In this document: piece by piece, positions 9,786 to 56,137 of the stretch
How the letters are laid out: the number at the start of each line of letters is the position of its first letter
How positions within the stretch are numbered: position 1 is the first letter of the stretch
Assembly: GCA_965226055.1 (NCBI GenBank)
Contig: CBDDCA010000006.1
Span: forward strand, 258,251 to 322,250
Length of the DNA: 64,000 nucleotides
Reading direction: 5' to 3'
DNA from: Spirochaetia bacterium
GTDB taxonomy: Bacteria > Spirochaetota > Spirochaetia > WTKD01 > G963693115
Notes under the pieces: model-generated
Told to the model about the DNA's origin: nothing
Seen by the model: the letters and a program-made list of their open reading frames with translations, nothing else
Database searches by the model: none
Made by a program: the position numbers and the translations under genes

Positions 9786-9820
9786 CACGAGTTCAAGTAT
9801 TAAATGTGACAAAGGAGCAA
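9786..9820 (+). repeat. solo copy of the IS30-family left inverted repeat (copy A, diverged)
   Basis: cacgagttcaagtattaaatgtgacaaaggagcaa compares with the IRL of the intact element at 54784, cacgagttcaaggattaaatgcgacaaaggagcaa. No transposase gene is adjacent. Confidence 0.75.
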
Positions 9821-9930
9821 AAAAAGCGAAAATATAAAAAATACTGAATGTATCTCTTGCCTTTATTTCTTGAATTTGTAGCAGCTATCTTTTCTGTATA
9901 ACTGTGAGTAAGGTATTTTATAAGTGGCAA

Positions 9931-10604: not shown

Positions 10605-13600
10605 CTAGCGACAATTCCCCGCTGGAAGACACCATCCAGGCAAGTTTTTTACAGCTGTACCCTTAAACATATCTGTTTTTATCACACTGTTTGCTACATT
10701 CCAGTTACTCAAATTCTGATTAAAAACACTAGCATCAGCAAACATACTGCTCATATCGGTAACATTACTTACATTCCAATTCCCTATATCTTGATTAAAA
10801 ACATCAGCATCATAAAACATATACCTCATATTGGCAACATTACTTACATTCCAATTCCCTATATCCTGATTAAAAGCTTCAGCATCATAAAACATACTGT
10901 TCATATTGGTAACTTTACCTACATTCCATTTTGATATATCTCCATTGAAAAATTCTGTTTGATTAAACATATTGCTCATATCGGTAACTTTACTTACATT
11001 CCATAACGATACATCTCCATTAAAGTATTGTTTATCATAAAATAGCCCTCCCATGTCTGTTATGTTACTTGTATCTATCATGTTTAAGTTAGGGGCAAAT
11101 CCTTGTGCTTTTATCTCTGCTTCTATGGCTTCCTCTAACTTTTTTTTGTTTTGAGGAGTGTACTTGTATTCTATCGTAACTGATATTGTTTTTGATCTAC
11201 TGGCATCAGTATATGTATGTATTGCTTTCCCATCGCTCTTTTTACTGGTAAACTCTATAGTATAGGTCTTTGAAGCTGCTTTGGTAGGAGTACCTGATAT
11301 CTTCCCAGTATCAGCATCAAAGCTCAACCCTGTATCTGCTGTTATATCCGGACTTATACTAAAAATTCCTGCTATAGCGGGTGTTTTAGTAAGTGTTACT
11401 TCTTTATCTTTCGTTAATGGTACTCCTACATATGCCTTTACACTACCTCCTATACTAGCTCTACTTGCACTTATATTAAAATACCATGTAGGGAGTATTA
11501 CTACAGCTGTATGCTCAAACATATTTGTTTTACTCACAGTTTTATCCACATTCCATGTTTCAAGTTCTTTATTAAATACACTTGCTCCCTTAAACATATT
11601 GCTCATATCGGTAACTTTACTGACATTCCACCCTGTTATATCTTGATTAAACTTACTTGCATTAATAAACATACTACGCATATCGGTAACTTTACTGACA
11701 TTCCACCCTGTTATATCTTGATTAAACTCACTTGCCTTAAAAAACATACTGCTCATATTGGTAACGCTACTGACATTCCATCTTGATATATTTCCATTAA
11801 AATTAACTTCACTGGAAAATAGACTACTCATATCTTTTATTTTACTTGTATCTATCATAGTGAGATCGGGGGTATTTCCTTGTACAGTTATCTCTGTATT
11901 TATAGCCTGCTGTAATTCTGCTTTATTATTAGGAATATGCTTATACTCTTTAATAGTAACTAACACTTTTATAGTCCGCCTATCATCAATATATTTATGT
12001 ATGAGTGTTTTATCAGCCTCTTCACTTCTAAACTGTATGGTATACTCAGTCTGTGAAGTTACTGTGGTGGGAGTACCTGATATTATGCCAGTACTAGTAT
12101 CAAAGTTCAACCCTGTATTTGTTGTTATATTTGGACTTATACTAAAACTCCCTGTTATAACGGGCGTTTTGGTAAGTATTATTTTTTGACTGTCTAGGAG
12201 TGATAAATCTCTATAGACACTTATAGTAGTACTATTTGCACTTATACTAAAATACCATGTAGGCAACTTTTTTACTGCTGAAGCAAGAAACATATCTGTT
12301 TTTGTCACACCGCTATCTACATTCCAACTTTCAAGATCTTGGTTAAATGCATTTGCGTTATTAAACATAAAAAACATATTCGTAACACTACTGACATTCC
12401 AATTTGATATATCCCCATTAAATTTTTGTGCTCCTGCAAATATACTGCTCATATTGGTAACTTTACTTACATCCCATTTCGATACATTTCCATTAAAATG
12501 ATCTTTACTGGAAAATATATTACTCATATCTGTTATAGCACTCGTATCTATTATGTTTAGATTAGCGGTATTTCCTTGTGCATTTATCTCATCATCTACA
12601 GCCTTCTGTAATTCTGTTTTATCACTGGGCGTATACTTATACTGACTTATAGTTACATGTATCTCTATTGTCCGATCAGTATATGTATGTATTGTTTTCC
12701 CATTCTTTTCACTGGTAAACTGTATAGTATACTTAGTTTGTGAAGCTAATATAGTGGGAGTACCCGATATTGAGCCAGTGTTAGTATCAAAGTTCAACCC
12801 TGTATTTGTTGTTATATTTGGACTTATACTAAAACTCCCTGTTACATTAGACGTTTTAGTGAGTGTTATTGTTTCAGTGTTACTTAGCGATAAATCTTTG
12901 TATCCAGTTATAGTAGTTCTGTTTGCATTTATACTAAAATACCATGTAGGCAACTTCTTTACTACTGTACTTTCAAACATATTTGTTTTTATTACACTGC
13001 TTTTTACATTCCAGTTTTCCAGATTTGCACTAAACTTTGATGCAAAATTGAACATAGTTTCCATATTTGTAACTTTACTTACAGTCCAATTTTTTATATC
13101 TTGGTTAAAGCTTTGTGCAGATAGAAACATAGCTCTCATATTTATAACTTTACTTACAGTCCAATTTTTTATATCTTGGTTAAAGGCATGTGCTCCAGCA
13201 AATAAACTCTCCATATTTGTAACAGCACTTACATTCCATCCTGATATATCTCCATTAAATTTATTCGCATTCAAAAACATATTGCTCATATTTGTAACTT
13301 TACTTACATTCCATTTTGATATATCTCCATTGAAATTAGCTTTATCCTCAAATAGATTACTCATATCTGTTATAACACTTGTGTCTATTATGTTGAGATT
13401 AGCAGTATCTCCTTGTGCAGCTATCTCATCATCTACAGCTTTCTGTAACTCTGTTTTATTACTAGGAGTATGCTTATAACTTGTGGTAACTGATATTTTT
13501 ATTGTTCTATCAGTATATTTATGTGTCGCTGGATTACCTTTACTATCAGTAAAGCTACTGGTAAACTCTATAGTATAATCAGTCTTTGAAGCTGCTTTAG

Positions 13601-16600
13601 TAGGAGTTCCTGATATTGTGCCAGTGCTAGTATTAAAATCTAACCCTGTATTTACTGTTATATCTGGACTTATACTAAAACTTCCTGTTATATCAGGCGT
13701 TTTGGTAAAAGTTATTTCTTTATTTTTTGCAAGTGGAACATTTACATATGTATTTATACTACGATTACTTGCACTTATATTAAAATACCATGTAGGCAAC
13801 TTTGCTACTGCGGTATTCTTAAACATATCTGTTTTTGTCACACCACTTGCTACATTCCAGCTTTCAAGATCTTTTTCAAATGCATTTGCTCCACTGAGCA
13901 TACTACTCATATTGGTGACAGCATTTACATCCCATTCGGATATATCTCCATTGAAAGTAATATTATCCTTAAATAGATCACTCATATCTGTTATTTTACT
14001 TGTATCTATTATGTTGAGATTAGCTTCGTTTCCTTGTACATTTATCTCTGTAGTTATAGCTTGCTTTAATTCTGTTTTATTATTAGGAGTATGCTTATAC
14101 CTACGTATCTCTACCGATATTTTTATTGTCCTATCAGTATCAATATATTTATGTATTACTGTTCCATCTGTCTTTTTACTTGTAAACTGTATGGTATATT
14201 CAGTCTTTGAGATTGCTGTAAGAGGAGTACCCGATATTTTACCAGTGCTAGGATCAAAATCTAAACCTGTATTTTTTGCTATATCTGGACTAACGCTAAA
14301 ACTTCCTGTTATATTAGGTGTTTTGGTAAGGGTTATTTCTTTATCTGTTGCTAATGGTATGTTTTTATATGCAATTATCTTATTATCACTTGCACTTATG
14401 CTAAAATACCATGTAGGCAACTTTGCTACTGCGGTATTCTTAAATATATCTGTTTTTGTCACAGTCCCATCGCTTGCTACATTCCAATCTTCCAGATCTT
14501 GGTTAAATTTTGTCGCTCCCAAGAACATCTTGCCTATATCGGTAACGCTACTTATATTCCAGCTTGATATATCTTGATTAAACGCTGCCGCTGACGAAAA
14601 CATCTGATGCATATTCGTAACTTTTCCTACCTTCCAATTTGATATATCTTTATTAAAAATGGTTGCTCCCGAAAACATAGCTGTCATATTTGTAACTTTT
14701 CTTACATCCCAGCCCGACATATTGCTATTAAAATTTGCTGCTCCTAAAAACATTCGATTCATATCCGTAACTGCCCCTACATTCCACCCCGATATATCTT
14801 TATTGAAACTGGTTGCTCCCGAAAACATATTCCCCATATCATTCACATTTTGTACCTTCCAATTTGATATATCTTGATTAAAACTTGTCGCATTCCAAAA
14901 CATACCATTCATGTTAGTAACACTTTGTACCTTCCAGTTTGATATATCTTGATTAAAACTACCTGCATAATAAAACATACTGCTCATATCAATAACATTA
15001 CTTACATTCCAACCAGAAATATCCCCATTAAATGCAGCAGCTTGATTAAACATATGACTCATATCAGTAACATTACTTACATCCCACTCAGATATTTTAC
15101 CATTAAAAGTAGTATTACTATTAAATAATCCACTCATATCATCAATCTTACTAGTATCAATTATATTTAAGTCAGCAGTATTTCCTTGTAATCCTATCTC
15201 AGTATTTATATTGTTTATTAATTCTAATTTACCAGTAGGAGTATACTTATGCCCTATAGTAACTGTTATCGTTATTGTCCTATCAGTATAGGCATATATT
15301 GTTTTCCCATTCTTTTCACTGGTAAACTGTATGGTGTAAGGAGTTTTTGAAGCTACCTTTGTAGGAGTACCCGATATTGTCCCAGAGCTAGAATCAAAAC
15401 TCAAGCCTGTATTTGTTGTGATACTTGGACTTATACTAAAACTTCCTGCTATACTAGGTGTTTTGGTAACTTTTATTTCTTCACTTGCTCCTAATTTTAT
15501 ACGTGCTTGCCCTGTCAGAGCAGACTTATTTGCACTTATACTAAAATACCATGTAGGTAACTTTGCTACTGCGGTATTCTTAAACATATCTGTTTTTGTC
15601 ACAGTCCCATCGCTTGCCACCTTCCAGCTTTCAAGATCTTTGTCAAATGCACTTGCTCCTAAAAACATGCTACTCATATCAGCAACCTTGCTTACATTCC
15701 ATCCCGATACATTTTGATTGAAACTTGTTGCTCCTGAAAACATATTACTCATATCGGTAACGCTACTTACATCCCATCCCGATATATCTCCATTGAAATT
15801 AGCTTTATTCTCAAATATATTACTCATATCTGTTATATTACTTGTATTTATTATGTTTAAGTTAGCAGTATTTCCTTGTACTTCTATCTCCTTTTTTATG
15901 TTTTCCAATAACTCTGTTTTGTTGTTAGGAGTATAAAGATAAGTATTTATTGCTACTGATAGAGTGATGGATCTAGTATCGACATAAGTATATGTCGCTG
16001 GATTACCTGAGCTATCAGTAAAGCTACTGGTAAACTGTATGGTGTAAGAAGTTTGTGAAGCTGCCTCGGTAGGAGTACCCGATATTGTGCCAGTTCTAGT
16101 ATCAAAATCTAACCCTGTATTTGCTTTGATATCTGGACTTATACTGAAACTTCCTGCTATAAGGGGTGTCCTTGTCAGTATTATATCTGTTATTGGTACT
16201 TTTACTCCCTCATGTATACTATTGCTGCTTGCGCTTATACTAAAATACCATGTAGGTAATTTTGCTACTGCAGTATTCGTAAACATATTTGTTTTTGTCT
16301 TAAGGCTTGCTATATTCCAGTTTTCAATATCTCCATTAAATTTTATCGCCCCACTCAACATATTTTCCATATCAGTGACTTTACTTACATTCCACTCGGA
16401 TATATTTCCATTGAAAGTAGTGTTATCCTTAAATAGATCACTCATATCTGTTATGTTACTTGTATCTATTATGTTGAGATTAGCAGTATTTCCTTGTGCA
16501 TTTATCTCTGTAGTTATAGCTTGCTTTAATTCTGCTATATTATTGGGAGTATGCTTATATTTATGTATCTCTACTGATATTGTTATTGTTCTATCAGTAT

Positions 16601-19073
16601 AGGTATGTGTTGCTAAAGCACCTGTACTACCAGTAAAGCTACTGGTAAACTGTATGGTGTAAGAAGTTTGTGAAACTGCTTTGGTAGGAGTGCCTGATAT
16701 TGTCCCAGTGCTAGTATTAAAACTCAACCCTGTATTTGCTGTTATATCTGGACTAATACTAAAATTTCCTGCTATATCAGGCGTTTTGCTAAGGGTTATT
16801 TCTTCATTTTTTGCTAGCGGTATTCCTCTATATACATCTATACTAGCACTATTTGACTTTATGCTAAAATACCATGTAGGTAATTTTGCTACTGCGGTAT
16901 TCTTAAATATATCTGTTTTTGTCACAGCGATTGCTACATTCCAGCCTTCAAGATCTTGTGTAAACTTAGAAGCACCAGAAAACATGCTACTCATATTGGT
17001 AACCTTGCTTACATTCCATCCCGACACATTTTGATTGAAACTTGTTGCTCCTAAAAACATACTGCTCATATCGGCAACTTTACTTACATTCCATCCCGAT
17101 ACATTTTGATTGAAACTTGTTGCTCCTAAAAACATACTGCTCATATCGGTAACTTTACTTACATTCCATTTCGATATGTCTCCATTAAAACTTGTTGCTC
17201 CTGAAAACATACTGCTCATATCGGTAACTTTACTTACATTCCATTTCGATATATCTCCATTGAAAGTAGTGTTATCCTTAAATAGCCTACTCATATCTGT
17301 TATAAGACTCGTATTTATTATGTTTAGATTAGCAGTATTTCCTTGCAATCCTACCTCTGTTTTTATAGCTTCCAATAATTCTGCTTTATTTTTTGGCTTA
17401 TACTCTATAGTGAGCAATATTTCTATTGTCCTATCAGTATCAGTATAGGTATGTATTTCTGTCCTATCAGAGGAGGTACTTGTAAATGTTATAATATACT
17501 CAGTCTCTGAGGCTACCTTTGTAGGAGTACCTGATATTGTGCCAGTACTAGTATCAAAACTCAACCCTATACTCGTTATATCTGGCTTTATACCAAATTT
17601 TCCTGTTATATCAGGCGTTTTGCTAAGAGTTATTTTTTCATTATCTGCTAGTGATACCCCTTTATATACAGTGAGCTCATCAACATTAGCACTTATGCTA
17701 AAATACCATGTAGGCAATTTTGCTACTGCGGTATTTGTAAACATATCTTTTTTTGTCACAGTGCTTGCTACATTCCAGCCTTCAAGATCTTTATCAAATG
17801 CACTTGCTCCTGAAAACATACCATCCATATCTGTAATATTACTTACCTTCCACTTTGATATGTCTCCATTGAAACTTGTTGCTCCTGCAAACATATTACT
17901 CATATCGGTAACATTGCTTACATCCCACAATGATATATCTCTATTAAAGGTAGTGTCATCCTTAAATAGATCATGCATATCTTTTACAGCACTTGTATTT
18001 ATATAGTTAAAATTATCTACATCAGTATTTTTAATTGCTTCTATTAATTCGTTACGTGTTTTTACTATAGCAGTAAACACCGATACATATATAGAGAACT
18101 GGCTAGACTTTCCTAAGTAACTTCCATCCCCTGTAAAACGAATTGTATATTTTCTTCGTATACCATTTTCTTTATCCTTCAATAACCTTATTGCAGTGCC
18201 ATATATTTCTCCATTATTGTCCTTCATCTCCAATCCTGTATCTTCCGTAAGAGTTGTCGTTTTTCCATCAGTACTATTAAATTCAATACTCCATGTACCA
18301 GTAATTCCTGGAGGGCTTGTTGCAATATTGATTGGCATTAAAGGAACATTCAAGCTCGACTTGATTAACTGTTCATTATCATACCTATCTGTGATAGAGT
18401 TTCCATCACGCACAAGAGTAAATACATAATGCCAACTAGGAATACTTGTTGCAGGTACATTAGCTCCCTTAAATATATCTTGTATATTTACTGAATCTGC
18501 TACCTGCCATTTCTCTAAATCATACTGAAACACTGTTGCTTTATTAAACATGTTACTCATATCGGTAACCTTGCTCACATTCCAGCCTGATATATCTTGA
18601 TTAAAACTTGCTGCGGCTTCAAACATGTTACTCATATCGGTAACCTTGCTCACATTCCAGCCTGATATATTTTGATTAAAACTCGTTGCTCCCTTAAACA
18701 GATTACTCATATTAGTAACATTACTTACATTCCAGCCTGATATATTTCCATTAAAGGTAGTATTTCCTTCAAACATACTGCTCATATCAGTAATATTGCT
18801 TACATCCCAACTTGATATATCACCTGAAAAATTGGAAAATTCACCATCACCTTTGAATAAGCCGCTTATATCTTTTACTTTACTTGTATCTATAGTAGAG
18901 AGATCTGCTGCATTTCCGCGGGAGGCAATTTCTCGCTTAATGTTTTCAATAAGCGATTCTCTACTATCAGGAGAGTAAATAAAGTCTAAACTTAAAGATT
19001 TTTCTGGATCACAACCAGATACCAAAAAAGCGAAACATAAAAATAGCCAAAATATAAAAAATTGATACTTCAT
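10605..19073 (-). CDS. giant modular surface lipoprotein: 11 modules of DUF285/BspA LRR blocks, most followed by a putative-Ig (He_PIG-like) domain
   Basis: 2822-aa uninterrupted ORF. The lipobox is FLVSGCDP. There are eleven module starts of the type GNTANLNIIDTS.ITDMS.LF. Each is followed by 3-11 copies of the 23-aa unit F(N)xDIS.WNVS.VT.M..MF..A..F, then AVAKLPTWYFSISA and GLSFDTSTGTISGTPT. The last module ends with LPGWCLPAGNCR. Confidence 0.9.
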   Translation of the reverse strand: MKYQFFIFWLFLCFAFLVSGCDPEKSLSLDFIYSPDSRESLIENIKREIASRGNAADLSTIDTSKVKDISGLFKGDGEFSNFSGDISSWDVSNITDMSSMFEGNTTFNGNISGWNVSNVTNMSNLFKGATSFNQNISGWNVSKVTDMSNMFEAAASFNQDISGWNVSKVTDMSNMFNKATVFQYDLEKWQVADSVNIQDIFKGANVPATSIPSWHYVFTLVRDGNSITDRYDNEQLIKSSLNVPLMPINIATSPPGITGTWSIEFNSTDGKTTTLTEDTGLEMKDNNGEIYGTAIRLLKDKENGIRRKYTIRFTGDGSYLGKSSQFSIYVSVFTAIVKTRNELIEAIKNTDVDNFNYINTSAVKDMHDLFKDDTTFNRDISLWDVSNVTDMSNMFAGATSFNGDISKWKVSNITDMDGMFSGASAFDKDLEGWNVASTVTKKDMFTNTAVAKLPTWYFSISANVDELTVYKGVSLADNEKITLSKTPDITGKFGIKPDITSIGLSFDTSTGTISGTPTKVASETEYIITFTSTSSDRTEIHTYTDTDRTIEILLTIEYKPKNKAELLEAIKTEVGLQGNTANLNIINTSLITDMSRLFKDNTTFNGDISKWNVSKVTDMSSMFSGATSFNGDISKWNVSKVTDMSSMFLGATSFNQNVSGWNVSKVADMSSMFLGATSFNQNVSGWNVSKVTNMSSMFSGASKFTQDLEGWNVAIAVTKTDIFKNTAVAKLPTWYFSIKSNSASIDVYRGIPLAKNEEITLSKTPDIAGNFSISPDITANTGLSFNTSTGTISGTPTKAVSQTSYTIQFTSSFTGSTGALATHTYTDRTITISVEIHKYKHTPNNIAELKQAITTEINAQGNTANLNIIDTSNITDMSDLFKDNTTFNGNISEWNVSKVTDMENMLSGAIKFNGDIENWNIASLKTKTNMFTNTAVAKLPTWYFSISASSNSIHEGVKVPITDIILTRTPLIAGSFSISPDIKANTGLDFDTRTGTISGTPTEAASQTSYTIQFTSSFTDSSGNPATYTYVDTRSITLSVAINTYLYTPNNKTELLENIKKEIEVQGNTANLNIINTSNITDMSNIFENKANFNGDISGWDVSSVTDMSNMFSGATSFNQNVSGWNVSKVADMSSMFLGASAFDKDLESWKVASDGTVTKTDMFKNTAVAKLPTWYFSISANKSALTGQARIKLGASEEIKVTKTPSIAGSFSISPSITTNTGLSFDSSSGTISGTPTKVASKTPYTIQFTSEKNGKTIYAYTDRTITITVTIGHKYTPTGKLELINNINTEIGLQGNTADLNIIDTSKIDDMSGLFNSNTTFNGKISEWDVSNVTDMSHMFNQAAAFNGDISGWNVSNVIDMSSMFYYAGSFNQDISNWKVQSVTNMNGMFWNATSFNQDISNWKVQNVNDMGNMFSGATSFNKDISGWNVGAVTDMNRMFLGAANFNSNMSGWDVRKVTNMTAMFSGATIFNKDISNWKVGKVTNMHQMFSSAAAFNQDISSWNISSVTDIGKMFLGATKFNQDLEDWNVASDGTVTKTDIFKNTAVAKLPTWYFSISASDNKIIAYKNIPLATDKEITLTKTPNITGSFSVSPDIAKNTGLDFDPSTGKISGTPLTAISKTEYTIQFTSKKTDGTVIHKYIDTDRTIKISVEIRRYKHTPNNKTELKQAITTEINVQGNEANLNIIDTSKITDMSDLFKDNITFNGDISEWDVNAVTNMSSMLSGANAFEKDLESWNVASGVTKTDMFKNTAVAKLPTWYFNISASNRSINTYVNVPLAKNKEITFTKTPDITGSFSISPDITVNTGLDFNTSTGTISGTPTKAASKTDYTIEFTSSFTDSKGNPATHKYTDRTIKISVTTSYKHTPSNKTELQKAVDDEIAAQGDTANLNIIDTSVITDMSNLFEDKANFNGDISKWNVSKVTNMSNMFLNANKFNGDISGWNVSAVTNMESLFAGAHAFNQDIKNWTVSKVINMRAMFLSAQSFNQDIKNWTVSKVTNMETMFNFASKFSANLENWNVKSSVIKTNMFESTVVKKLPTWYFSINANRTTITGYKDLSLSNTETITLTKTSNVTGSFSISPNITTNTGLNFDTNTGSISGTPTILASQTKYTIQFTSEKNGKTIHTYTDRTIEIHVTISQYKYTPSDKTELQKAVDDEINAQGNTANLNIIDTSAITDMSNIFSSKDHFNGNVSKWDVSKVTNMSSIFAGAQKFNGDISNWNVSSVTNMFFMFNNANAFNQDLESWNVDSGVTKTDMFLASAVKKLPTWYFSISANSTTISVYRDLSLLDSQKIILTKTPVITGSFSISPNITTNTGLNFDTSTGIISGTPTTVTSQTEYTIQFRSEEADKTLIHKYIDDRRTIKVLVTIKEYKHIPNNKAELQQAINTEITVQGNTPDLTMIDTSKIKDMSSLFSSEVNFNGNISRWNVSSVTNMSSMFFKASEFNQDITGWNVSKVTDMRSMFINASKFNQDITGWNVSKVTDMSNMFKGASVFNKELETWNVDKTVSKTNMFEHTAVVILPTWYFNISASRASIGGSVKAYVGVPLTKDKEVTLTKTPAIAGIFSISPDITADTGLSFDADTGKISGTPTKAASKTYTIEFTSKKSDGKAIHTYTDASRSKTISVTIEYKYTPQNKKKLEEAIEAEIKAQGFAPNLNMIDTSNITDMGGLFYDKQYFNGDVSLWNVSKVTDMSNMFNQTEFFNGDISKWNVGKVTNMNSMFYDAEAFNQDIGNWNVSNVANMRYMFYDADVFNQDIGNWNVSNVTDMSSMFADASVFNQNLSNWNVANSVIKTDMFKGTAVKNLPGWCLPAGNCR

Positions 19074-25546: not shown

Positions 25547-26797
25547 TTACTGTAATGTAGCAAAAGTTTCCGTAAGCTTTACAACAAACTGATCTTCGGT
25601 CAATTCTTTTTTTGCAAACTGTTCAAACAATGGGCCAAGTACATTGTCTCTAAAATCTCCGGGTAAATAGTATTGATTCCATGCATATGTTTTTCCTTCA
25701 TTCACCCATTCCAGTAAAGATGCAGATAATGGCGCTTTTGGAGTAAGACTAACATTAGTAAAGGCAGGTATAGCTTGAATTTTATTTACCATATAATCAT
25801 GGCCCTGTGGTGTTTCAGCCATAAATCGTAAGAACGCTTTTGCTTTACTTGCATTCCCGTACTTGTTGACTACATACCATGTTGGAGGATTCACAAACAC
25901 TCCATCTGTATCTTCAAACGAAGAACCATGTGGAGCATATGCACGAGGAAATGTCACGTTTGCATTTGCTAAGTTTGGTTCAATCCAATTTCCTTGATGA
26001 ATAAATGCTGCTTTCTGAGTAGCAAAGGCATTGACTTGTGCATCATAGTCTCCTGCCACTAGCACTCGTTGATCAGAGTAATCAAATAATAGCTTTACCC
26101 ACATTACATATTCTCTTAATCGTTCTTTTTCTACTTTTCCTTCAAGTGCTTTCTCTACAACAGAAAGATCATTTCTTGCTAAGCCATTCGAAAGGTACGA
26201 GTTTATATTATGATGAGATGTTACCCAATGCATACCAGAACCTGCAGTCATAGATACTACACTGTCAAGACCTAATACTTCTTTCATATCATCAAGCTCT
26301 TCAAACGCAGCCTTGTATGCATGATAATTAGTGAGTAATGCAGGATCAATGCCTGCCATATCAAGTATTTGTGCGTTATACCCCATGCCCCATCCCTCAA
26401 TGGCTATGGGAAAACCAACAATTTTATCATCAACTTCAAATCCTACATCAGTGTATTGAGTCCACGATTCATCAGAAAGATCATCTATGTATTCTGACCA
26501 TGTTTGGTATCCTTCTTTTCCATCAATGACAAATATATCTGGGGCTTCGCCTGCATTGATATCGGCTCGCAACTGAGTAGTGAGACTACAAGAATCACCT
26601 CCACATGTTTTGACCACTACTTTCATTCCTGTAGATTGCCTAAACACTTCAGCAAACTCTTTGAGCTGAGCATCAATTTCAACTTTGTTATGCATAATTA
26701 TAATAGGACGATCTTTAGTATCTTCATTTGATCCTCCTGCCCACGCTACAGTACTGATGTATACTATCAGTAAAAAATATATACCTATTTTCTTCAT
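25547..26797 (-). CDS. sugar ABC transporter extracellular solute-binding protein (family 1)
   Basis: 416 aa with a signal peptide. It is the first gene of the operon that also holds the GH4 gene and two permeases. No ATPase is encoded in the operon. Confidence 0.8.
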   Translation of the reverse strand: MKKIGIYFLLIVYISTVAWAGGSNEDTKDRPIIIMHNKVEIDAQLKEFAEVFRQSTGMKVVVKTCGGDSCSLTTQLRADINAGEAPDIFVIDGKEGYQTWSEYIDDLSDESWTQYTDVGFEVDDKIVGFPIAIEGWGMGYNAQILDMAGIDPALLTNYHAYKAAFEELDDMKEVLGLDSVVSMTAGSGMHWVTSHHNINSYLSNGLARNDLSVVEKALEGKVEKERLREYVMWVKLLFDYSDQRVLVAGDYDAQVNAFATQKAAFIHQGNWIEPNLANANVTFPRAYAPHGSSFEDTDGVFVNPPTWYVVNKYGNASKAKAFLRFMAETPQGHDYMVNKIQAIPAFTNVSLTPKAPLSASLLEWVNEGKTYAWNQYYLPGDFRDNVLGPLFEQFAKKELTEDQFVVKLTETFATLQ

Positions 26798-26866
26798 AAA
26801 TTACTCCTTTAATTATTATTAGTATATCATATATGTACATATTATATTTTTATAACAAGAAAATAT

Positions 26867-27266
26867 CACGAGTTCAAGGATTAAATGCGACAAAGGAGCA
26901 AGAAACATAAAACAAGCATATTTTTTATTAGCTACTACATATAGTGTATATTTAGTATATAATTTTCAATTTAAGCACTAGAGAAATTTGCTTTATTTTT
27001 ATATTAATGCTATACTAAATGCAGAATAATAAGAGAACAATAACATTATGAGTGTACAAGCAAAAACTGATACAAAAGAAACTACTTTAATTTTAAATAA
27101 TACCGATAAGGAAAATTTGGAAAGATGTTTCTCGGAATGGAAATTCAAAGATTATCAAAGCCTTATGAGGTTCGTATCATCTATTTTAATTGAGAGCGAA
27201 GATAAAATAACAATAGGCATTAAGAAAAGTGGAGTGCTAAAAGAATTTTCACCAGCAGATCATTTA
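26867..27266 (+). repeat. about 400-bp dispersed repeat (copy 1), made of an IS30 IRL-like sequence, an AT-rich leader and most of a 77-aa ORF; it matches 54284..54692
   Basis: It starts with cacgagttcaaggattaaatgcgacaaaggagcaa. The stretch gcatatttttt attagctactacatatagtgtatatttagtatataattttcaatttaagcactagagaaatttgctttatttttatattaatg.tatactaaatgcagaataataagagaacaataacattatgagtgtacaag is near-identical in both copies, with only a handful of substitutions and one about 9-bp indel by eye. Confidence 0.9.
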
Positions 27267-27281
27267 CTAAAAGATTCATAA
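27048..27281 (+). CDS. small hypothetical protein (77 aa), duplicated at 54474
   Basis: The ORF is conserved in two copies with almost no substitutions. I recognise no motif. Confidence 0.6.
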   Translation: MSVQAKTDTKETTLILNNTDKENLERCFSEWKFKDYQSLMRFVSSILIESEDKITIGIKKSGVLKEFSPADHLLKDS

Positions 27282-27626
27282 ATGGCAGATAATCAAAACA
27301 ATAAACCTAATGCTGAGTATAGCATTGAACATCAATTAAAGGAGTTAAAGCAAGATATAATTACCCCTCATAAATTTGCAAAGATATTTTCTGATGCTAT
27401 GCGTGAATCAAAAGGTTTAGATGAAAGTATACAAAAATGCTTAAAAGAGCTTATAGCTAAAGATGATGATATTAAAAAGGAAATTTTTGAGAGAATAAAA
27501 GATTACATCAAAGAAGAAAGAAAGTTATTTAATACATCAGTATGGAAAACATCTAAAGACATTATTCTTTTAATTGTAGGTGCTGGAATATCGTTTTTAT
27601 TTACATGGCTAGCAAAGTTTCTTTAA
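27282..27626 (+). CDS. small tail-anchored membrane protein (114 aa), hypothetical
   Basis: Its ATG abuts the stop of the 77-aa ORF (taaatg). The body is a charged helix and the C-terminal TM segment is IILLIVGAGISFLFTWLAKFL. An N-terminally similar fragment lies at 54700. Confidence 0.6.
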   Translation: MADNQNNKPNAEYSIEHQLKELKQDIITPHKFAKIFSDAMRESKGLDESIQKCLKELIAKDDDIKKEIFERIKDYIKEERKLFNTSVWKTSKDIILLIVGAGISFLFTWLAKFL

Positions 27627-27673
27627 GTAGCTAAAAAGAAGCTATACATTTGATACCGCACTTGATACCACGA

Positions 27674-28360
27674 CTACTCTCTCTGTAAGTGCTCTATAAT
27701 CATTTCTTTTGCTTCTGAAATCTCTAATAACGATGTTATAAAATAGTGCATATTCTCTTTTTGATGGAATTTTCTCTCATTGACTATCTCATCATAGTTA
27801 ATACACAGTAAACTACACAGCTCTTCTCCTGTATATGCCTCATACTCATTTATCTTATTCTTGAAGCCTGTCACTATCTGTTTTTTGTCTGTTACATTAA
27901 AAGAACACATCACAGGAGTAACGGTAAACTGTATTTCTCGTGATATAAAATTAATATATTCGTGTAAATGCCGTCTCTCTCCCGCTGATTTTTTAGTATC
28001 AAATTGATCTCCATCTTTTACTTCTATGACATAACAATTCTGCACATTCTGTTTTGTTTTTTGGAATGCTACAAAATCAGGCTCAAAAGATTTCTGAGCT
28101 ATTAAGGATTTTTTTATTTGTTGTTTGTTCGCTACCCATATTCCTTCTGGATAGGAATCTGACTTTAGATAAGAGTCAATATCTGTTATTTGATTACAAC
28201 GCTCCCATATAATCTTTTCTAGTTCATTCCCTGCTGATATTACTGTAGCTTGTAACTTACTTATCAAGTTACCTAGCTTTTCATTCCCTACTATTCTTGT
28301 ATAACCACTTGGAGACTGTTTCGTATCTCTTCCTTTTGCTTCACTGAGAAGAGCATTCAT
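27674..28360 (-). CDS. putative type II restriction endonuclease (PD-(D/E)xK)
   Basis: 228 aa. EPDFVAF...(16 aa)...YVIEVKDGD fits the PD...(D/E)xK pattern. Its start overlaps the stop of the upstream methylase gene by 4 nt. Confidence 0.6.
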
Positions 28361-29070
28361 GTTTCTATTATATCACATCCTAAAAAATTTCTGTTTGATT
28401 TTTTACATGCTTCAAATACAGAAAAACTACCGCTTGCAGGGTCTATTACTATATCATCCTCATTTGTTACTGCTTCAATCAATGCTTTTTGTAGCTCTAT
28501 TGGCTTGTTATGAGCATGATTTCTCTCTACTTTCTCATCCCATACATCTCTTATAGTATGAACAGTCCATACTCCCTTTGCTCTTTTAGGAGCTTTCTGA
28601 ATAACATATACATATTCTGATACTCGCCTTGTTCTATACCCCATCCCTATTCTTTGTTTATTCCATGTTATAAGATCCACTATTTCTAAATGAGTTTCTA
28701 CTAACCACTTACTAATACCATTACACAAAATAAATTTGTCTACCCATAAAAAACAATGCCCCATAGGATGCAATACTCTATCTATCTCTTTTATAAACTT
28801 GTCTATTATTTTATCTGTCATCTGTGGCAAAATAGCTCTCGCTTTTTGCCGCTCCCCTTCATTTCCATATCCTTGCTTATCTAAGATTCCTCTATACTGA
28901 GGATCAAAAAATACTACTGGGAATGTATTACTATCCAACTTAGAAAGAAGATCTAAGCCATCCATCTGCATTTTTGTGTTTAGTGTTAGTCCTTTCGCTA
29001 ATGTTATATCTCCTTGCTTAATATCTCGCTTACTCGAATATACATTATTGGGATTATACTGTGCTTTCAT
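28357..29070 (-). CDS. DNA methyltransferase, beta-class N4/N6 (motif IV before motif I)
   Basis: 237 aa. Motif IV is the variant [31 protein letters not shown] follows. The AdoMet motif is [48 protein letters not shown]. Confidence 0.85.
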
Positions 29071-42087: not shown

Positions 42088-43044
42088 TCATATTGGTATC
42101 TTAATCCATGCTTGAGGCACATCTGTATCATTGATACTGTATCCTTCTTTTTCTTTAGAACTAATATACGGTAAAATTACTATCTTATCTTTATTTGTAT
42201 TAAGCCATGCTCCCCACCAACTAAATGTACTACTTGCAATTATTTGATGCTTACATTTACTTAGCAAATATAAATCTTCATGTCCTTTTGAAAGTGAATT
42301 TCCGTCCATAATAGTAAAGGATATATGAGAGAAACGATGAGCTTGCCTTTTAACCCATGCAGGATCATCACTAAAGAAAAAATAATGTGGATGCTGTAAT
42401 TTTTTCTGCATAATATGTATTGCAGCAAGATAATAATCTATACCTACCAAATTGCCTATAGTAACAACATCTGTCCTACGAATATGAACTCCCACTGATT
42501 GCTTTTTACTCAATATGATGTTTTCGTATTTTAAAGAATAGCTGCCAAGTGGATTACGAAGGGTACATTGCTGAAGAATATCACTTCGATACTCTTCAAA
42601 AAATGTATGACATTGAAACCAACCATCAAGGTACACATTATTCCCCAGACGAAATAAAGATTGTACATACTCATCTGGATACCCATATTTAACATGATGA
42701 TTATTAAACGTTTTCAAACAATATATCTTTGTAAGATACCGTTTAAGAAATAATGCTACTTTCATAGGAACATTCATTTTCCTTATAAGAGATAATAAAG
42801 CATGCACTCTCCTATAATATTTGTAAGAAGGTATTAGTAAGCAACCATATTGAGCAATAATATTATATTCATCAAGAAAAAGAATACGAGCTTTTATACT
42901 GTTACCAGCAGAATCTTTCACAAAATAATCATAATCTAAAAAATCAAGAACAACATAGGTATTATTTTTTCTTGCTAAGGCATAGGCTGTAGCGTATTGA
43001 AATAACTGATTACCAAGTCTCCCTTGTACTTTAACAGCTATCAT
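42088..43044 (-). CDS. glycosyltransferase family 11 (alpha-1,2-fucosyltransferase-like)
   Basis: 318 aa. GRLGNQLFQYATAYALA, VGVHIRRTD and IIASSTFSWWGAWL match the FutC-type motifs GGLGNQMFQYA, HIRRGD and STYSWW. Confidence 0.85.
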   Translation of the reverse strand: MIAVKVQGRLGNQLFQYATAYALARKNNTYVVLDFLDYDYFVKDSAGNSIKARILFLDEYNIIAQYGCLLIPSYKYYRRVHALLSLIRKMNVPMKVALFLKRYLTKIYCLKTFNNHHVKYGYPDEYVQSLFRLGNNVYLDGWFQCHTFFEEYRSDILQQCTLRNPLGSYSLKYENIILSKKQSVGVHIRRTDVVTIGNLVGIDYYLAAIHIMQKKLQHPHYFFFSDDPAWVKRQAHRFSHISFTIMDGNSLSKGHEDLYLLSKCKHQIIASSTFSWWGAWLNTNKDKIVILPYISSKEKEGYSINDTDVPQAWIKIPI

Positions 43045-44047: not shown

Positions 44048-44082
44048 CACGAGTTCAAGGAGTAACTGCGACAAAGGAGCAA
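44048..44082 (+). repeat. solo IS30-family IRL (copy C, diverged)
   Basis: cacgagttcaaggagtaactgcgacaaaggagcaa lies exactly at the end of duplication unit 1. Confidence 0.75.
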
Positions 44083-44114
44083 AAAACATACTGTTACCTA
44101 ATTTATGTGATCTA

Positions 44115-54283: not shown

Positions 54284-54692
54284 CACGAGTTCAAGGATTA
54301 AATGCGACAAAGGAGCAAAAAAAGTAAGAAAAATAAAACAAAGCATATTTTTATTAGCTACTACATATAGTGTATATTTAGTATATAATTTTCAATTTAA
54401 GCACTAGAGAAATTTGCTTTATTTTTATATTAATGTTATACTAAATGCAGAATAATAAGAGAACAATAACATTATGAGTGTACAAGTAAAAACTGATACA
54501 AAAGAAACTACTTTAATTTTAAATAATACCGATAAGGAAAATTTGGAAAGATGTTTCTCGGAATGGAAATTCAAAGATTATCAAAGTCTTATGAGGTTCG
54601 TATCATCTATTTTAATTGAGAGCGAAGATAAAATAACAATAGGCATTAAGAAAAGTGGAGTGCTAAAAGAATTTTCACCAGCAGACCATTTA
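54284..54692 (+). repeat. about 400-bp dispersed repeat (copy 2): IS30 IRL-like sequence, leader and small ORF; it matches 26867..27266
   Basis: See copy 1. The first 55 nt or so (gatcacgagttcaaggattaaatgcgacaaaggagcaaaaaaagtaagaaaaa) are identical to the left end of the intact IS30 element 500 bp downstream. Confidence 0.9.
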
Positions 54693-54731
54693 GTAAACGA
54701 TGTCAGAACCTCAGAACAACCAAAAAAGTAG
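54474..54731 (+). CDS. small hypothetical protein (85 aa), paralogue of 27048..27281 with a different C-terminal tail
   Basis: It is identical to the 77-aa protein except A5V, up to ...EFSPADHL. It then reads VNDVRTSEQPKK in place of LKDS. Confidence 0.55.
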   Translation: MSVQVKTDTKETTLILNNTDKENLERCFSEWKFKDYQSLMRFVSSILIESEDKITIGIKKSGVLKEFSPADHLVNDVRTSEQPKK

Positions 54732-54783
54732 TGATAATTATATCACCGATCAACAGTTAAAGGAATTTAATTATGTCACCGAT
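54700..54783 (+). pseudogene. 5' fragment of a paralogue of the 114-aa tail-anchored protein gene, interrupted by IS30
   Basis: MSEPQNNQKSSDNYITDQQLKEFNYVTD compares with MADNQNNKPNAEYSIEHQLKELKQDIITP (27282). The frame runs straight into the IS30 IRL. Confidence 0.5.
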
Positions 54784-55866
54784 CACGAGTTCAAGGATTA
54801 AATGCGACAAAGGAGCAAAAAAAGTAAGAAAAAATAAAAAAAGGAGACACTCTATAATTGTATAAACGAAACAAATTAGGAGGTCTCCTTTATGAGTATA
54901 CCAAAAAACTCATTTCGTCATCTGACAGAGAAAGATCGTACTATTATCGCTACGCTCCGTCATGCAAAGTACAGTGTCAATGCTATAGCCAAACGCCTCA
55001 GTGTCCATCGCAGCACTGTCTATCGTGAAATACAACGCAATGGGGGCAAACGTGTCTATAATGAAGTCATTGCTCACAGACGGGCAAGAAAACGATGGGA
55101 ACAGAGTCATACAAAACACTCTGTTCTTTCTCATACTATTCGTACCTATATCGTTTTTCACCTTATTTTCGATGGCTGGTCGCCCGAACAAATAGCAGGA
55201 AGGCTCAGTATTGATATGCCTCAGTATGCTATCAGTCATGAGACGATATATCACTTTATTTACCGTTTCGCTCCTCATTTGACACAGTATCTGCGAAAAC
55301 AGCACCAAACACGCAAAAAAAGAACCATATCTCACTCTTTTTCTGTTTCTCGTATCCCTCATCGTGTCTCAGTACACGAACGAGGCGATGTTTCTAATGA
55401 ATATGGCCACTGGGAAGTAGATCTTGTTGGCTCTTCTTCAAAAGCTACTGTGCTTGCTTTAGTGGAAAAACATACCCGTTATGTTCTTTTTCATAAGATA
55501 CCTGACAAAACTGCTCATACCGTACAGTATGGCATGCTCTTTGCTCTAAGGAACATACCACGCCATTTATGTAACAGTTTCACTTATGATAATGGGAGTG
55601 AATTTATGCTCCATACTGAAATAAATACACGCTTGAATGCTCGTTCTTATTTTTGTACTCCTTACTGTGCTTGGGAAAAAGGATTAGTCGAACATTCTAT
55701 TGGATTATTACGTCAGTACTTTCCTAAGAAGACTTTGTTTCATAGAGTCAAGCAAAGTGATATACTACAAGTACAAACGCTTATCAATCATAGACCACGA
55801 AAATGTCTTCATTTTTTGACCCCTGCTGAAGCCTTTTCTGTCGCATTTAGTCCTTGAATCCGCACT
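54784..55866 (+). mobile_element. intact IS30-family insertion sequence, about 1.08 kb
   Basis: The IRL is cacgagttcaaggattaaatgcgacaaaggagc. The reverse complement of the right end (55833-55866) is gtgcggattcaaggactaaatgcgacagaaaagg, sharing the core TTCAAGGAyTAAATGCGACA. There is a single transposase ORF inside. The exact termini are uncertain by a few nt. Confidence 0.85.
54892..55857 (+). CDS. IS30-family DDE transposase
   Basis: 321 aa. The N-terminal HTH reads LTEKDRTIIATLRHAKYSVNAIAKRLSVHRSTVYREIQRN. GHWEVDLV, TYDNGSEF and EHSIGLLRQYFPK are the D, D and E blocks typical of IS30 transposases. An RBS aggagg lies 8 nt upstream. Confidence 0.92.
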   Translation: MSIPKNSFRHLTEKDRTIIATLRHAKYSVNAIAKRLSVHRSTVYREIQRNGGKRVYNEVIAHRRARKRWEQSHTKHSVLSHTIRTYIVFHLIFDGWSPEQIAGRLSIDMPQYAISHETIYHFIYRFAPHLTQYLRKQHQTRKKRTISHSFSVSRIPHRVSVHERGDVSNEYGHWEVDLVGSSSKATVLALVEKHTRYVLFHKIPDKTAHTVQYGMLFALRNIPRHLCNSFTYDNGSEFMLHTEINTRLNARSYFCTPYCAWEKGLVEHSIGLLRQYFPKKTLFHRVKQSDILQVQTLINHRPRKCLHFLTPAEAFSVAFSP

Positions 55867-55888
55867 TAGTACAGAAAATAATAAGGAA

Positions 55889-55969
55889 ATGATAATTACT
55901 CTTATGGCTGATAAATTTGAAATTGCTAAAGACGCAATGACTTATCGTCTGGGATTACAAAATAAATAG
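55889..55969 (+). pseudogene. possible 3' fragment of the gene interrupted by IS30
   Basis: MIITLMADKFEIAKDAMTYRLGLQNK shows patchy similarity to DIITPHKFAKIFSDAMRESKGL of the 27282 product. It has no TM tail. The assignment is tentative. Confidence 0.3.
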
Positions 55970-56137
55970 CTTTTTTATGATAGCCTAAAAAACTCTCTGT
56001 AATTGCCCATCATAGCAATACTACAAAAATTTTAATTTTTTACTATAATACTAGTGTATGATGATAACATACAATAATGAAACAAAAGGAGTATTTCTAT
56101 GAATGAAAATAGAGAGCTACAAAGTATGAAAAAAATC

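What the first reader, a model, noticed from the sequence alone, without database searches (positions are those of the whole stretch)
26867..27626. Duplicated two-gene cassette (77-aa protein plus tail-anchored membrane protein) fused behind an IS30 IRL; one copy abuts a type II R-M system and the other is hit by IS30
About 400 bp are present twice, 27 kb apart (26867..27266 and 54284..54692), with only a few substitutions. The repeat consists of an IS30 IRL-like sequence, an AT-rich leader and a 77/85-aa ORF.

In copy 1 the ORF is followed, stop abutting start, by a 114-aa protein with a C-terminal TM helix. The pair converges on a restriction endonuclease and methylase operon. In copy 2 the homologous second gene (MSEPQNNQKSSDNYITDQQLKEF...) is interrupted after 28 codons by the intact IS30 element.

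I recognise no motif in either protein. A small soluble protein translationally coupled to a small tail-anchored membrane protein recalls toxin/antitoxin, holin-like or abortive-infection pairs. Its location next to an R-M system, and its near-perfect conservation between copies (implying recent mobility or gene conversion), make it a candidate accessory or defence or addiction module of unknown type.
Basis: partly seen in the sequence, partly recalled or inferred. Interest (0 to 1): 0.6.

Follow-up and report, generated by a model that had tools for sequence, protein, structure and literature searches.

The report
Phage-type gene pair behind IS30 stub
This spirochaete genome holds two copies of a small undescribed two-gene module (a 77-aa soluble protein plus a 114-aa membrane protein anchored by its C-terminal tail), each joined to the leftover left end of an IS30 insertion sequence; elsewhere the same pair sits in prophage lysis regions or alone in chromosomes, and here one copy is intact, the other is broken, and the function is unknown.

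Summary
A unit of about 400 bp occurs twice (26867-27266 and 54284-54692): the first 56-65 nt of an IS30 element, a 125-nt leader and a 77/85-aa gene (g1). Leader plus g1 are 98.8% identical. Copy 1 continues into an intact 114-aa tail-anchored protein (g2). Copy 2 has a diverged g2' cut after codon 28 by an intact IS30. That IS30 has no target-site duplication, and the rest of g2' is not on its far side.

Neither protein matches Pfam, NCBIfam, PHROGs, PADLOC or PDB. An exhaustive HMMER search found a small g2 family. In all 12 other allele contexts examined, a g1 homologue lies directly upstream with touching or overlapping stop and start. These pairs sit in prophage lysis or accessory regions, or alone between housekeeping genes, where dN/dS is 0.09-0.17.

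A sister genome has deleted g1, g2 and the restriction enzyme at the copy-1 locus, leaving only the IS30 stub. Adjacency to restriction-modification is not general. There is no right inverted repeat, so this is not a two-ended IS30 cassette.

My best reading is a phage-derived accessory module in which a membrane effector is held in check by a cytoplasmic partner (toxin-antitoxin or abortive-infection-like, or holin/antiholin-like). That mechanism is inferred, not shown.

The parts
26867..26922 (+). IS30 left-end stub of copy 1: the IRL plus about 30 nt of sub-terminal sequence. There is no transposase gene and no IRR.
   Evidence: It matches the left end of the intact IS30. The orthologous stub is present in the sister genome at L034.
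26923..27047 (+). Cassette-specific AT-rich leader, not derived from IS30. It holds a candidate extended -10 promoter: TTGCTT (26988-26993), 17 nt, then TGcTATACT (27008-27016).
   Evidence: It is 124/125 identical to copy 2 and diverges from IS30 after about nt 57-65. The promoter was read by eye; the scan tool did not flag it. Rfam gives no hit and the fold has z = -0.44.
27048..27281 (+). g1: a 77-aa soluble protein and a member of an undescribed family. It always lies directly upstream of a g2 homologue.
   Evidence: Alignment A4 shows 30-42% identity over the full length. A profile built from A4 finds five further, independent upstream genes at E 1e-22 to 1e-38. There is no Pfam, NCBIfam, PHROG, PADLOC or PDB match.
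27282..27626 (+). g2: a 114-aa tail-anchored membrane protein. It has a helical cytoplasmic domain with the motif P-x-K-F-A-x-x-F and a C-terminal TM helix (about residues 94-111; nt 27561-27614).
   Evidence: Exhaustive phmmer found 19 proteins with E<=0.001 including the query itself, most of them 96-121 aa and aligned over their full length. See also alignment A2, the leave-one-out profile score of 94 bits, the hydropathy of family members and an all-helical AF2 model of low confidence.
27674..28360 (-). Type II restriction endonuclease gene, convergent with g2. It is a neighbour, not shown to be part of the module.
   Evidence: PADLOC REase_II, 2.5e-52. It is deleted together with g1 and g2 in the sister genome.
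28357..29070 (-). DNA methyltransferase of the same R-M operon. Its start overlaps the pgi stop.
   Evidence: Pfam N6_N4_Mtase 5.6e-19; PADLOC MTase_II 1.4e-84. It is C-terminally truncated in the sister genome.
54284..54348 (+). IS30 left-end stub of copy 2.
   Evidence: It is 95% identical to the left 65 nt of the adjacent intact IS30.
54349..54473 (+). Leader of copy 2.
54474..54731 (+). g1', the 85-aa variant. It matches g1 through codon 72 (one change, A5V); L73V follows and the C-terminal tail then differs. It is intact.
   Evidence: The A4 profile scores it 108 bits.
54700..54783 (+). g2': the first 28 codons of a diverged g2 homologue. It overlaps the g1' stop by 32 nt and is cut exactly at the IS30 tip.
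   Evidence: Similarity to the g2 N-terminus is reached by only 5 of 5000 shuffles. The leave-one-out profile gives 8.4 bits.
54784..55864 (+). Intact 1081-bp IS30-family element: IRL, transposase gene 54892-55857, IRR. It has no target-site duplication.
   Evidence: NCBIfam transpos_IS30 4.4e-70.
55865..55969 (+). Short ORF tail right of the IS30. It is in frame with g2' but not demonstrably related to it, so its origin is unknown.
   Evidence: not significant; no Pfam match.
9786..9845 (+). A further solo IS30 IRL stub with no cassette.
44048..44095 (+). A further solo IS30 IRL stub, lying between two tandem paralogous genes, with no cassette.

Best explanation
What it is (high confidence, about 0.9): g1-g2 is a member of a rare, previously undescribed, horizontally mobile two-gene module of phage origin. 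It comprises a small cytoplasmic protein of about 77 aa, translationally coupled to a protein of about 110 aa. The second protein has a helical cytoplasmic domain tethered to the inner membrane by a C-terminal TM helix.

In this spirochaete the module lies on the inner side of a decayed IS30 left end. The stub-to-leader junction arose once. The unit now exists as two old paralogues whose leader and g1 were recently homogenised, most simply by gene conversion. Copy 1 is intact. Copy 2 has lost g2' through an IS30 insertion followed by an IS-associated rearrangement.

How it works (inferred, about 0.4): g2 is a membrane-acting effector. Its TM helix is rich in small residues (G/A/S), which fits oligomerisation. 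g1 is its stoichiometric cytoplasmic partner and keeps it inactive. The pair would then behave like a toxin-antitoxin or abortive-infection/superinfection-exclusion cassette, carried by prophages as an accessory gene unit (moron) and able to persist alone in chromosomes.

Shown: anatomy, conservation of the pair, genomic contexts, purifying selection, and loss in a sister genome. Inferred: the g1-g2 interaction, membrane activity, and any addiction or defence phenotype.
For: - Pair conservation: all 12 g2 alleles examined outside the window have a g1 homologue directly upstream, with spacing from -23 to +6 nt.
- Contexts: downstream of prophage endolysin and Rz/Rz1-like genes (L001-L008); among lysis genes and near an integrase in a Termititenax prophage (L011); between membrane proteins and an M15 endolysin (L019); an IMG/VR contig between Erf-like and YqaJ-like genes (L038). 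The pair also stands alone between gidB and deoC (L012-18, L043, L046), next to fmt/def (L020), next to an IS1595 transposase (L047) and near a type I R-M (L044).
- Both genes are under purifying selection at a stable stand-alone locus: dN/dS 0.13-0.17 for g1 and 0.09-0.10 for g2, at dS 0.2-0.5.
- Distribution is patchy across distant taxa and the family is tiny: 21 clusters among 5.8 billion proteins.
- The cassette has 25-29% GC against 34-40% in its flanks.
- It is accessory: the sister genome (96% identical flanks) has deleted about 26972-28409, leaving the stub and 65 nt of leader, and no g2 was found in that genome.
- In copy 2 the membrane protein is destroyed while g1' stays intact. 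This is the decay order typical of toxin-antitoxin pairs, though that reading is an inference.
Against: - There is no sequence, profile or fold link to any known toxin, antitoxin, holin, antiholin or defence protein.
- The structure models are of low confidence: pLDDT 67 for g1 and 58 for g2.
- g2, at about 110 aa with a large cytoplasmic domain, is unlike the usual short membrane toxins.
- Stable vertical inheritance under purifying selection also fits an ordinary housekeeping-like membrane function.
- Three phage lineages place the pair inside lysis modules, which favours the lysis-timing rival.
- Nothing here tests toxicity, neutralisation or phage defence.
Confidence: 0.4

Rival explanations
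1. Lysis-timing accessory pair. g2 is a tail-anchored holin-like or holin-helper protein, with the same topology as XhlA of PBSX and gp24.1 of SPP1. g1 is a cytoplasmic antiholin-like regulator, by analogy with T4 RIII acting on holin T (own knowledge). The copies in this genome would be remnants of a degraded prophage.
For: - The pair lies within or next to lysis genes in three different prophage lineages: L001-8 after lysozyme and Rz/Rz1-like genes, L011 after an M15 peptidase and among TM proteins, and L019 between a TM protein and a u-spanin-like gene plus M15 endolysin.
- One family member (P0011) matches phrog_937 'hemolysin' at 2.6e-5 over its full length. SPP1 gp24.1 also matches that PHROG, at 1.2e-3.
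- XhlA and gp24.1 have a C-terminal TM helix and act only together with a second holin (PMC6316719; PMC5589764).
Against: - Profile-profile comparison of the g2 family with XhlA/gp24.1 gives a probability of only 3.7-9.6%, and 16 of the 17 members scanned (window g2 included) have no such PHROG hit.
- At least six lineages carry the pair with no lysis genes nearby. These include a locus kept under purifying selection and both copies in this window.
- In L038 the pair sits in the recombination module.
Confidence: 0.25
2. A currently mobile, non-autonomous IS30 derivative (a mobile insertion cassette or single-ended transposon). The passenger genes g1-g2 would be moved in trans by the IS30 transposase, which would explain why both copies start exactly at the IRL tip.
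For: - The left boundary of the repeat coincides to the base with the IS30 outer end.
- An intact IS30 transposase is present in the window.
- IS30-family elements are known to mobilise adjacent DNA and then decay to terminal remnants, as with ISApl1 and mcr-1 (PMC5821093).
Against: - No IRR-like sequence exists on the right of either copy: the only IRR in the window, allowing up to 3 mismatches, belongs to the intact IS, and local alignment of the copy-1 right flank to the IS30 right end is at chance level.
- The two copies are not uniformly similar (99% for leader and g1, about 71% for g2), and the stubs differ by indels. That is a gene-conversion pattern, not a recent-transposition pattern.
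- Solo IRL and IRR stubs of 33-75 nt without passengers are common in this lineage.
- The cassette sits on the inner side of the IRL, unlike the flank of a composite transposon.
Confidence: 0.12
3. An accessory of the adjacent type II R-M system, for example a controller or a membrane-linked regulator.
For: - g2 ends 47 nt from the REase stop.
- The sister genome lost the cassette and the REase in a single deletion.
- L044 and L006 have methylase or R-M genes within 2-3 kb.
Against: - Copy 2 and most homologous pairs have no R-M nearby.
- The orientation is convergent, so the genes do not form an operon.
- g1 shows no HTH or controller-protein signature.
Confidence: 0.05
4. The ORFs are spurious and the repeat is simply duplicated non-coding AT-rich DNA next to an IS stub.
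For: Word-index searches found only the sequences themselves. The region is very AT-rich.
Against: Both ORFs have full-length homologues at 25-42% identity in unrelated genomes, always as a pair. dN/dS is about 0.1-0.17.
Confidence: 0.02

Closest known systems
XhlA (PBSX) / gp24.1 (SPP1) tail-anchored holin-type lysis proteins
   Same: Small phage proteins of about 80-110 aa with a helical or coiled cytoplasmic N-terminal part and a single C-terminal TM helix. They are encoded in lysis modules and are not toxic alone (PMC6316719). One g2 relative hits the same PHROG (937) as gp24.1.
   Different: There is no profile-level homology (hhalign 3.7-9.6%). XhlA is paired with a two-TM holin and an endolysin, not with an upstream soluble protein of about 77 aa. 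g1-g2 also occurs far from any lysis gene.
Type II toxin-antitoxin operons
   Same: A compact two-gene operon with touching or overlapping stop and start and a small soluble first gene. Carried by phages or found stand-alone in variable regions, patchily distributed, lost in a sister strain, and with one copy retaining only the first gene.
   Different: Neither protein resembles any known toxin or antitoxin family. Classical type II toxins are cytoplasmic enzymes, not tail-anchored membrane proteins. No DNA-binding domain is detectable in g1.
Prophage membrane-effector exclusion or abortive-infection pairs (e.g. lambda RexA/RexB; own knowledge)
   Same: A prophage-borne accessory pair made of one soluble and one membrane protein, placed in accessory-gene (moron) positions.
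   Different: RexB is a four-TM channel and RexA is about 280 aa, with no homology to g1 or g2. No defence phenotype was tested, and PADLOC gives no hit.
Decay of IS30-family elements to terminal remnants (ISApl1-mcr-1, Tn6330; PMC5821093)
   Same: The element belongs to the IS30 family. IS copies are lost by deletion, leaving short terminal-IR remnants next to cargo genes, and target-site duplications are short (a 3-bp AAC duplication flanks the sister-genome copy in L031).
   Different: Here the cargo lies on the inner side of a left-end stub rather than between two IS copies. No second end is present, and transposition of the unit is not demonstrated.
Mobile insertion cassettes (MICs) and transporter IS elements (own knowledge)
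   Same: IS ends associated with passenger genes and no transposase gene of their own.
   Different: MICs have two inverted repeats and target-site duplications. This unit has only an IRL.

Membership tests
IS30 family insertion sequence (element 54784-55864) | DDE transposase of the IS30 type with an N-terminal HTH | tested here: met
   NCBIfam transpos_IS30 4.4e-70; Pfam HTH_38 and rve.
IS30 family insertion sequence (element 54784-55864) | Terminal inverted repeats | tested here: met
   IRL and IRR match at 21 of 26 positions, including a 20-nt core with one mismatch.
IS30 family insertion sequence (element 54784-55864) | Short (2-3 bp) target-site duplication | tested here: not met
   The flanks are GAT and CTT. 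The sister-genome copy in L031 does have AAC on both sides. This implies a rearrangement at the window copy; it is not evidence against the IS30 assignment.
Two-ended non-autonomous IS derivative (MIC or MITE with passengers) | An IRR at the far end of the passenger genes | tested here: not met
   No IRR within 3 mismatches other than that of the intact IS. Alignment of the copy-1 right flank to the IS30 right end is at chance level (144/1000 and 751/1000 shuffles).
Two-ended non-autonomous IS derivative (MIC or MITE with passengers) | Target-site duplication around the unit | tested here: inconclusive
   With no right end defined, no duplication can be assessed.
Type II toxin-antitoxin system | Two adjacent, co-oriented small genes with coupled translation, conserved as a pair | tested here: met
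   12 of 12 contexts outside the window, with spacing from -23 to +6 nt.
Type II toxin-antitoxin system | Homology of either partner to a known toxin or antitoxin family | tested here: not met
   Pfam, NCBIfam, PADLOC, PHROGs and PDB profiles give nothing consistent.
Type II toxin-antitoxin system | Toxicity of one partner, neutralised by direct binding of the other | not testable with these tools
   This needs expression experiments or a reliable model of the complex.
XhlA-type (PF10779-like) tail-anchored holin | Single C-terminal TM helix after a helical N-terminal part; length about 80-110 aa | tested here: met
   Hydropathy of g2 and relatives; AF2 secondary structure.
XhlA-type (PF10779-like) tail-anchored holin | Sequence or profile homology to XhlA/gp24.1 | tested here: not met
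   hhalign probability 3.7% against gp24.1 and 9.6% against a 4-sequence XhlA alignment. Only 1 of the 17 members scanned (window g2 included) hits phrog_937.
XhlA-type (PF10779-like) tail-anchored holin | Encoded next to a canonical holin and an endolysin | tested here: not met
   Not met in the window. Endolysin genes lie next to the pair in some phage relatives (L001-8, L011, L019).
Known anti-phage defence systems (PADLOC-DB v2) | A match of any component to a PADLOC model | tested here: not met
   g1 has no hit. g2 has only LmuA at E 0.004, 14.5 bits, which is not credible.
Ribbon-helix-helix regulator (considered for g1) | RHH sequence signature or fold | tested here: inconclusive
   No member of the g1 family hits an RHH Pfam model. 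The single-sequence AF2 model (pLDDT 67) shows beta-beta-alpha-alpha-beta-beta, and Foldseek finds no significant match.

The most novel reading that the evidence does not exclude
g1-g2 defines a new family of phage-borne membrane effector plus inhibitor modules. A tail-anchored protein would permeabilise or depolarise the inner membrane unless restrained by its small cytoplasmic partner. The module would act as an abortive-infection/superinfection-exclusion system or an addiction system that can survive as a stand-alone chromosomal cassette in several phyla.
Probability: 0.35. Interest if true: 0.55.

Novelty: new variant of a known kind. Interest (0 to 1): 0.42.

Why it matters
It matters in three modest ways.
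- It defines two linked protein families with no entry in Pfam, NCBIfam, PHROGs or PADLOC. They are always found as a coupled pair, in prophage lysis or accessory regions and as selected stand-alone cassettes. That makes a concrete, cheap candidate for a new small membrane-acting toxin-antitoxin, abortive-infection or lysis-control module: two genes, about 600 bp.
- It gives a clean natural example of IS30 decay to terminal stubs in a spirochaete lineage. It also shows cargo genes riding on the inner side of such a stub, with gene conversion between copies and a documented deletion in a sister genome.

None of this overturns current concepts.

Tried and rejected
- Ribbon-helix-helix idea for g1, from the pattern beta-strand / NGD / helix / FKD / helix. 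There is no RHH hit in Pfam for any of the 8 members, no PDB profile hit, the AF2 single-sequence model shows a beta-hairpin where helix B would lie, and Foldseek gives nothing with E<=0.001 (best 0.05). Left open and not claimed.
- XhlA membership of g2: rejected at the profile level.
- A right inverted repeat or MIC structure: none found.
- The 55865-55969 fragment as the continuation of g2'. It is in frame and contains DKF-EI, but it is not significant by BLOSUM shuffles (493/2000) or by profile (0.3 bits), and the IS lacks a target-site duplication. Rejected as unproven. No Pfam hit supports my ImmA-like impression either.
- The word-index protein searches returned only the query itself. 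Exact look-up of the window proteins found no contig on record.
- Close relatives in species-representative genomes: none.
- GenBank phages by tblastn with g2 and P0011: none.
- IMG/VR: a single locus.
The g2 model was too poor for a fold search.
- An RNA element or structured leader: no Rfam hit, z = -0.44.
- The promoter/terminator scan gave fewer hits than shuffles and no terminator.
- Literature searches for tail-anchored toxins or solo IS30 ends in treponemes found nothing directly relevant.
Full report
OBSERVATION. The repeat finder reports a 300-nt pair 26883-27182 / 54309-54608 and a five-member family of a roughly 40-63-nt motif. Alignments show one continuous unit that starts to the base at CACGAG, the outer tip of an IS30 left inverted repeat.

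Identity by segment:
- IS30-derived stub (26867-26922 vs 54284-54348): 54/55 aligned bases, plus a 9-bp and a 1-2-bp indel.
- Leader: 124/125.
- g1 codons 1-73: 216/219.
- After that, about 71% with gaps in the first 23-28 codons of the second gene.

The two 28-aa N-termini are still significantly alike (5 of 5000 shuffles). The IRL core occurs five times on the + strand of the window (9792, 26873, 44054, 54290, 54790), plus one IRR (55858), against 0.01 expected. Only the 54784-55864 element is complete; its transposase scores NCBIfam transpos_IS30 4.4e-70. The neighbours of copy 1 are a type II restriction enzyme and a methylase (PADLOC 2.5e-52 and 1.4e-84; Pfam N6_N4_Mtase).

ARE THE ORFS GENES? 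Library scans (Pfam, NCBIfam, PADLOC, PHROGs) gave nothing credible for either protein. The word-index search of 5.8 billion proteins returned only the sequences themselves.

The exhaustive phmmer search with g2 found a small family of proteins. Most are 96-121 aa and align over their full length at 25-41% identity. They share the motif P-D/H-K-F-A-x-x-F-C-x-A-A and a C-terminal hydrophobic helix. A profile search added more, for 21 clusters in all, none with a Pfam domain or an informative name.

I then fetched the DNA around these proteins. In every case a gene of 75-92 aa lies immediately upstream, with its stop touching or overlapping the start of the g2 homologue. These upstream proteins align with window g1 over their full length at 30-42% identity. 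Five further metagenome loci and one IMG/VR contig, none used to build the profiles, show the same pair. Their g1 profile E-values are 1e-22 to 1e-38.

At one stand-alone locus, sampled in several related genomes, dN/dS is 0.13-0.17 for g1 and 0.09-0.10 for g2, at dS 0.2-0.5. Both ORFs are therefore real, selected protein-coding genes, and the pair is the conserved unit.

WHERE THE PAIR LIVES. In prophages it lies:
- after a lysozyme and an Rz/Rz1-like spanin pair, with its own intergenic gaps on both sides (L001-L008);
- after an M15 peptidase, among small membrane proteins and 2 kb from an integrase, in Candidatus Termititenax persephonae (L011);
- between a C-terminal-TM protein plus HNH gene and a u-spanin-like lipoprotein plus M15 endolysin (L019);
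- in one IMG/VR contig, between an Erf-like and a YqaJ-like gene.

Elsewhere it stands alone:
- between gidB and deoC in a group of 32-34% GC genomes (L012-18, L043, L046);
- next to fmt/def in an alphaproteobacterial MAG (L020);
- next to an IS1595 transposase and ruvC (L047);
- 1.8 kb from a type I-like methylase and specificity gene pair (L044).

R-M or methylase genes lie within 3 kb in only 3 of about 13 contexts, so the R-M adjacency in the window is not a family trait. In the window the cassette has 25-29% GC against 34-40% in its flanks. No phage genes surround either copy.

THE IS30 SIDE. The cassette lies on the inner side of the IRL. Similarity to IS30 stops about 57-65 nt in, before the IS's own TATAAT and the transposase gene. 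No IRR exists to the right of either copy (chance-level alignment). This is therefore neither a two-ended cassette nor a composite transposon.

A sister genome (MAG Spirochaetia bacterium OZ244590.1) is 96% identical over the pgi-pst flank. It contains many solo IRL and solo IRR stubs of 33-75 nt and only two degenerate full copies. Decay of this IS to terminal stubs is thus routine in the lineage. The same has been described for the IS30-family element ISApl1 around mcr-1 (PMC5821093).

Locus L034 of that genome is the orthologue of the copy-1 locus. The stub and the first 65 nt or so of leader are there, with the same 9-bp deletion as copy 1, but they are fused directly to a C-terminally truncated methylase. 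Window positions of about 26972-28409 are missing: the rest of the leader, g1, g2, the REase and the last 18 or so methylase codons. The junction lies in a short stretch of ambiguous microhomology. The stub-cassette junction therefore predates the split of the two genomes, and the cassette is dispensable. The DNA to the left of the IRL also differs between the two genomes, so the IS end has been a rearrangement breakpoint.

RELATION OF THE TWO COPIES. The identity profile runs from a stub that differs by indels, through leader and g1 at about 99%, to g2 at about 71%. The copy-2 stub is closer to the neighbouring intact IS30 (95%) than the copy-1 stub is (91%). This fits two old paralogous units partly homogenised by a gene-conversion tract of about 345 bp. 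It does not fit a recent transposition of the whole unit. Because homology between the loci begins at the IRL tip, a conversion tract ending there needs no transposase. This step is an inference; only the complete genome can settle it.

COPY 2 IS BROKEN. IS30 begins exactly after codon 28 of g2'. The element has no target-site duplication (GAT on the left, CTT on the right), whereas the L031 copy in the sister genome has AAC on both sides. The ORF tail to the right of the IS is in frame, but it is not significantly related to g2 or its family. No other g2 fragment is present in the window. So an insertion was followed by an IS-associated deletion or exchange. g1' (85 aa, with an altered C-terminal tail) is intact.

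FUNCTION. Nothing links either protein to a known family. The leads were:
- One relative (P0011) matches phrog_937 'hemolysin' at 2.6e-5. SPP1 gp24.1, an XhlA-type tail-anchored holin, also hits this PHROG (PMC6316719). However, profile-profile comparison of the g2 family with XhlA/gp24.1 gives a probability of only 3.7-9.6%. I treat this as an analogy of topology, not as membership.
- The AF2 models are weak: g1 has pLDDT 67, with mixed alpha/beta structure and no significant Foldseek match; g2 has pLDDT 58 and is all-helical.
- The leader has no Rfam match and no unusual fold.
- A possible extended -10 promoter (TGcTATACT, 27008-27016) is conserved in both copies, but the scan tool did not flag it.

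From the anatomy and the contexts I favour a membrane effector (g2) restrained by a co-translated cytoplasmic partner (g1). It would be carried by phages as an accessory unit and could persist alone. This amounts to a toxin-antitoxin, abortive-infection or exclusion-like module (about 0.4). The main rival is a lysis-timing holin-helper/antiholin pair (about 0.25). The stand-alone loci kept under purifying selection, with no lysis genes, argue against lysis as the only role. Active IS30-mediated mobility of the unit (about 0.12), an R-M accessory role (about 0.05) and spurious ORFs (about 0.02) are less likely.

VERDICT. What is new is a pair of linked, undescribed small-protein families with a clear phage and mobile association. 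The IS30 stub, the duplication and the R-M neighbour are ordinary consequences of IS decay and recombination. I rate it a new variant of a known kind, of moderate interest (0.42).

Noticed in passing
window 56130-56143; 43081-43095; 44209-44224: Long homopolymer tracts. G14 lies at the start region of the 1571-aa surface-protein gene (56191-60906). C15 and C16 lie at the equivalent position of two tandem, 95%-identical paralogous minus-strand genes (43031-43990, 44115-45119). These look like slipped-strand phase-variation switches.
   Followed up: no
window 44048-44095 and 9786-9845: Two more solo IS30 left-end stubs without any cassette. One sits exactly between the two tandem paralogues. All four solo stubs lie 60-140 nt upstream of a minus-strand gene start and point away from it.
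   Followed up: partly
window 10605-19073 (minus strand): A 2822-aa ORF built from 75-nt (25-aa, leucine-rich-repeat-like) units nested within 620-850-nt higher-order repeats. The adjacent ORF 9931-10536 holds a 33-nt tandem repeat in 12 copies.
   Followed up: no
window 1791-4043 and 59520-59819: A repeat of about 360 nt, present six times in one ORF, with a diverged copy inside the 1571-aa surface-protein gene.
   Followed up: no
window 29067-29070: The stop codon of pgi overlaps the start codon of the methylase. The R-M operon is therefore read straight on from a housekeeping gene, and the same arrangement is kept in the sister genome (L034).
   Followed up: partly
L031:1577-3724 and L036 (sister genome OZ244590.1): The full-length IS30 copy in L031 carries a second, nested IS30-family element whose transposase is only about 30% identical, and it has a 3-bp target-site duplication (AAC). 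The copy in L036 is frameshifted and lies next to the same second element type.
   Followed up: partly
window 26841-26869 (minus strand): A promoter-like GTGATA-N17-TATAAT whose -35 hexamer is formed partly by the outer tip of the IS30 IRL. It faces the ABC-transporter binding-protein gene (25547-26797). It is only a consensus match.
   Followed up: no
L034:3317-5896: In the sister genome the gene to the left of the stub is an 859-aa protein with no Pfam match, in place of the ABC-transporter gene seen in the window. The chromosome is therefore rearranged exactly at the IS end.
   Followed up: partly
L044:7157-10100; L047:5326-6240: Stand-alone g1-g2 pairs lie 1.8 kb from an N6_Mtase plus Methylase_S pair (L044) and directly beside an IS1595 transposase (L047). 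This suggests the pair tends to sit in variable or mobile islands.
   Followed up: partly
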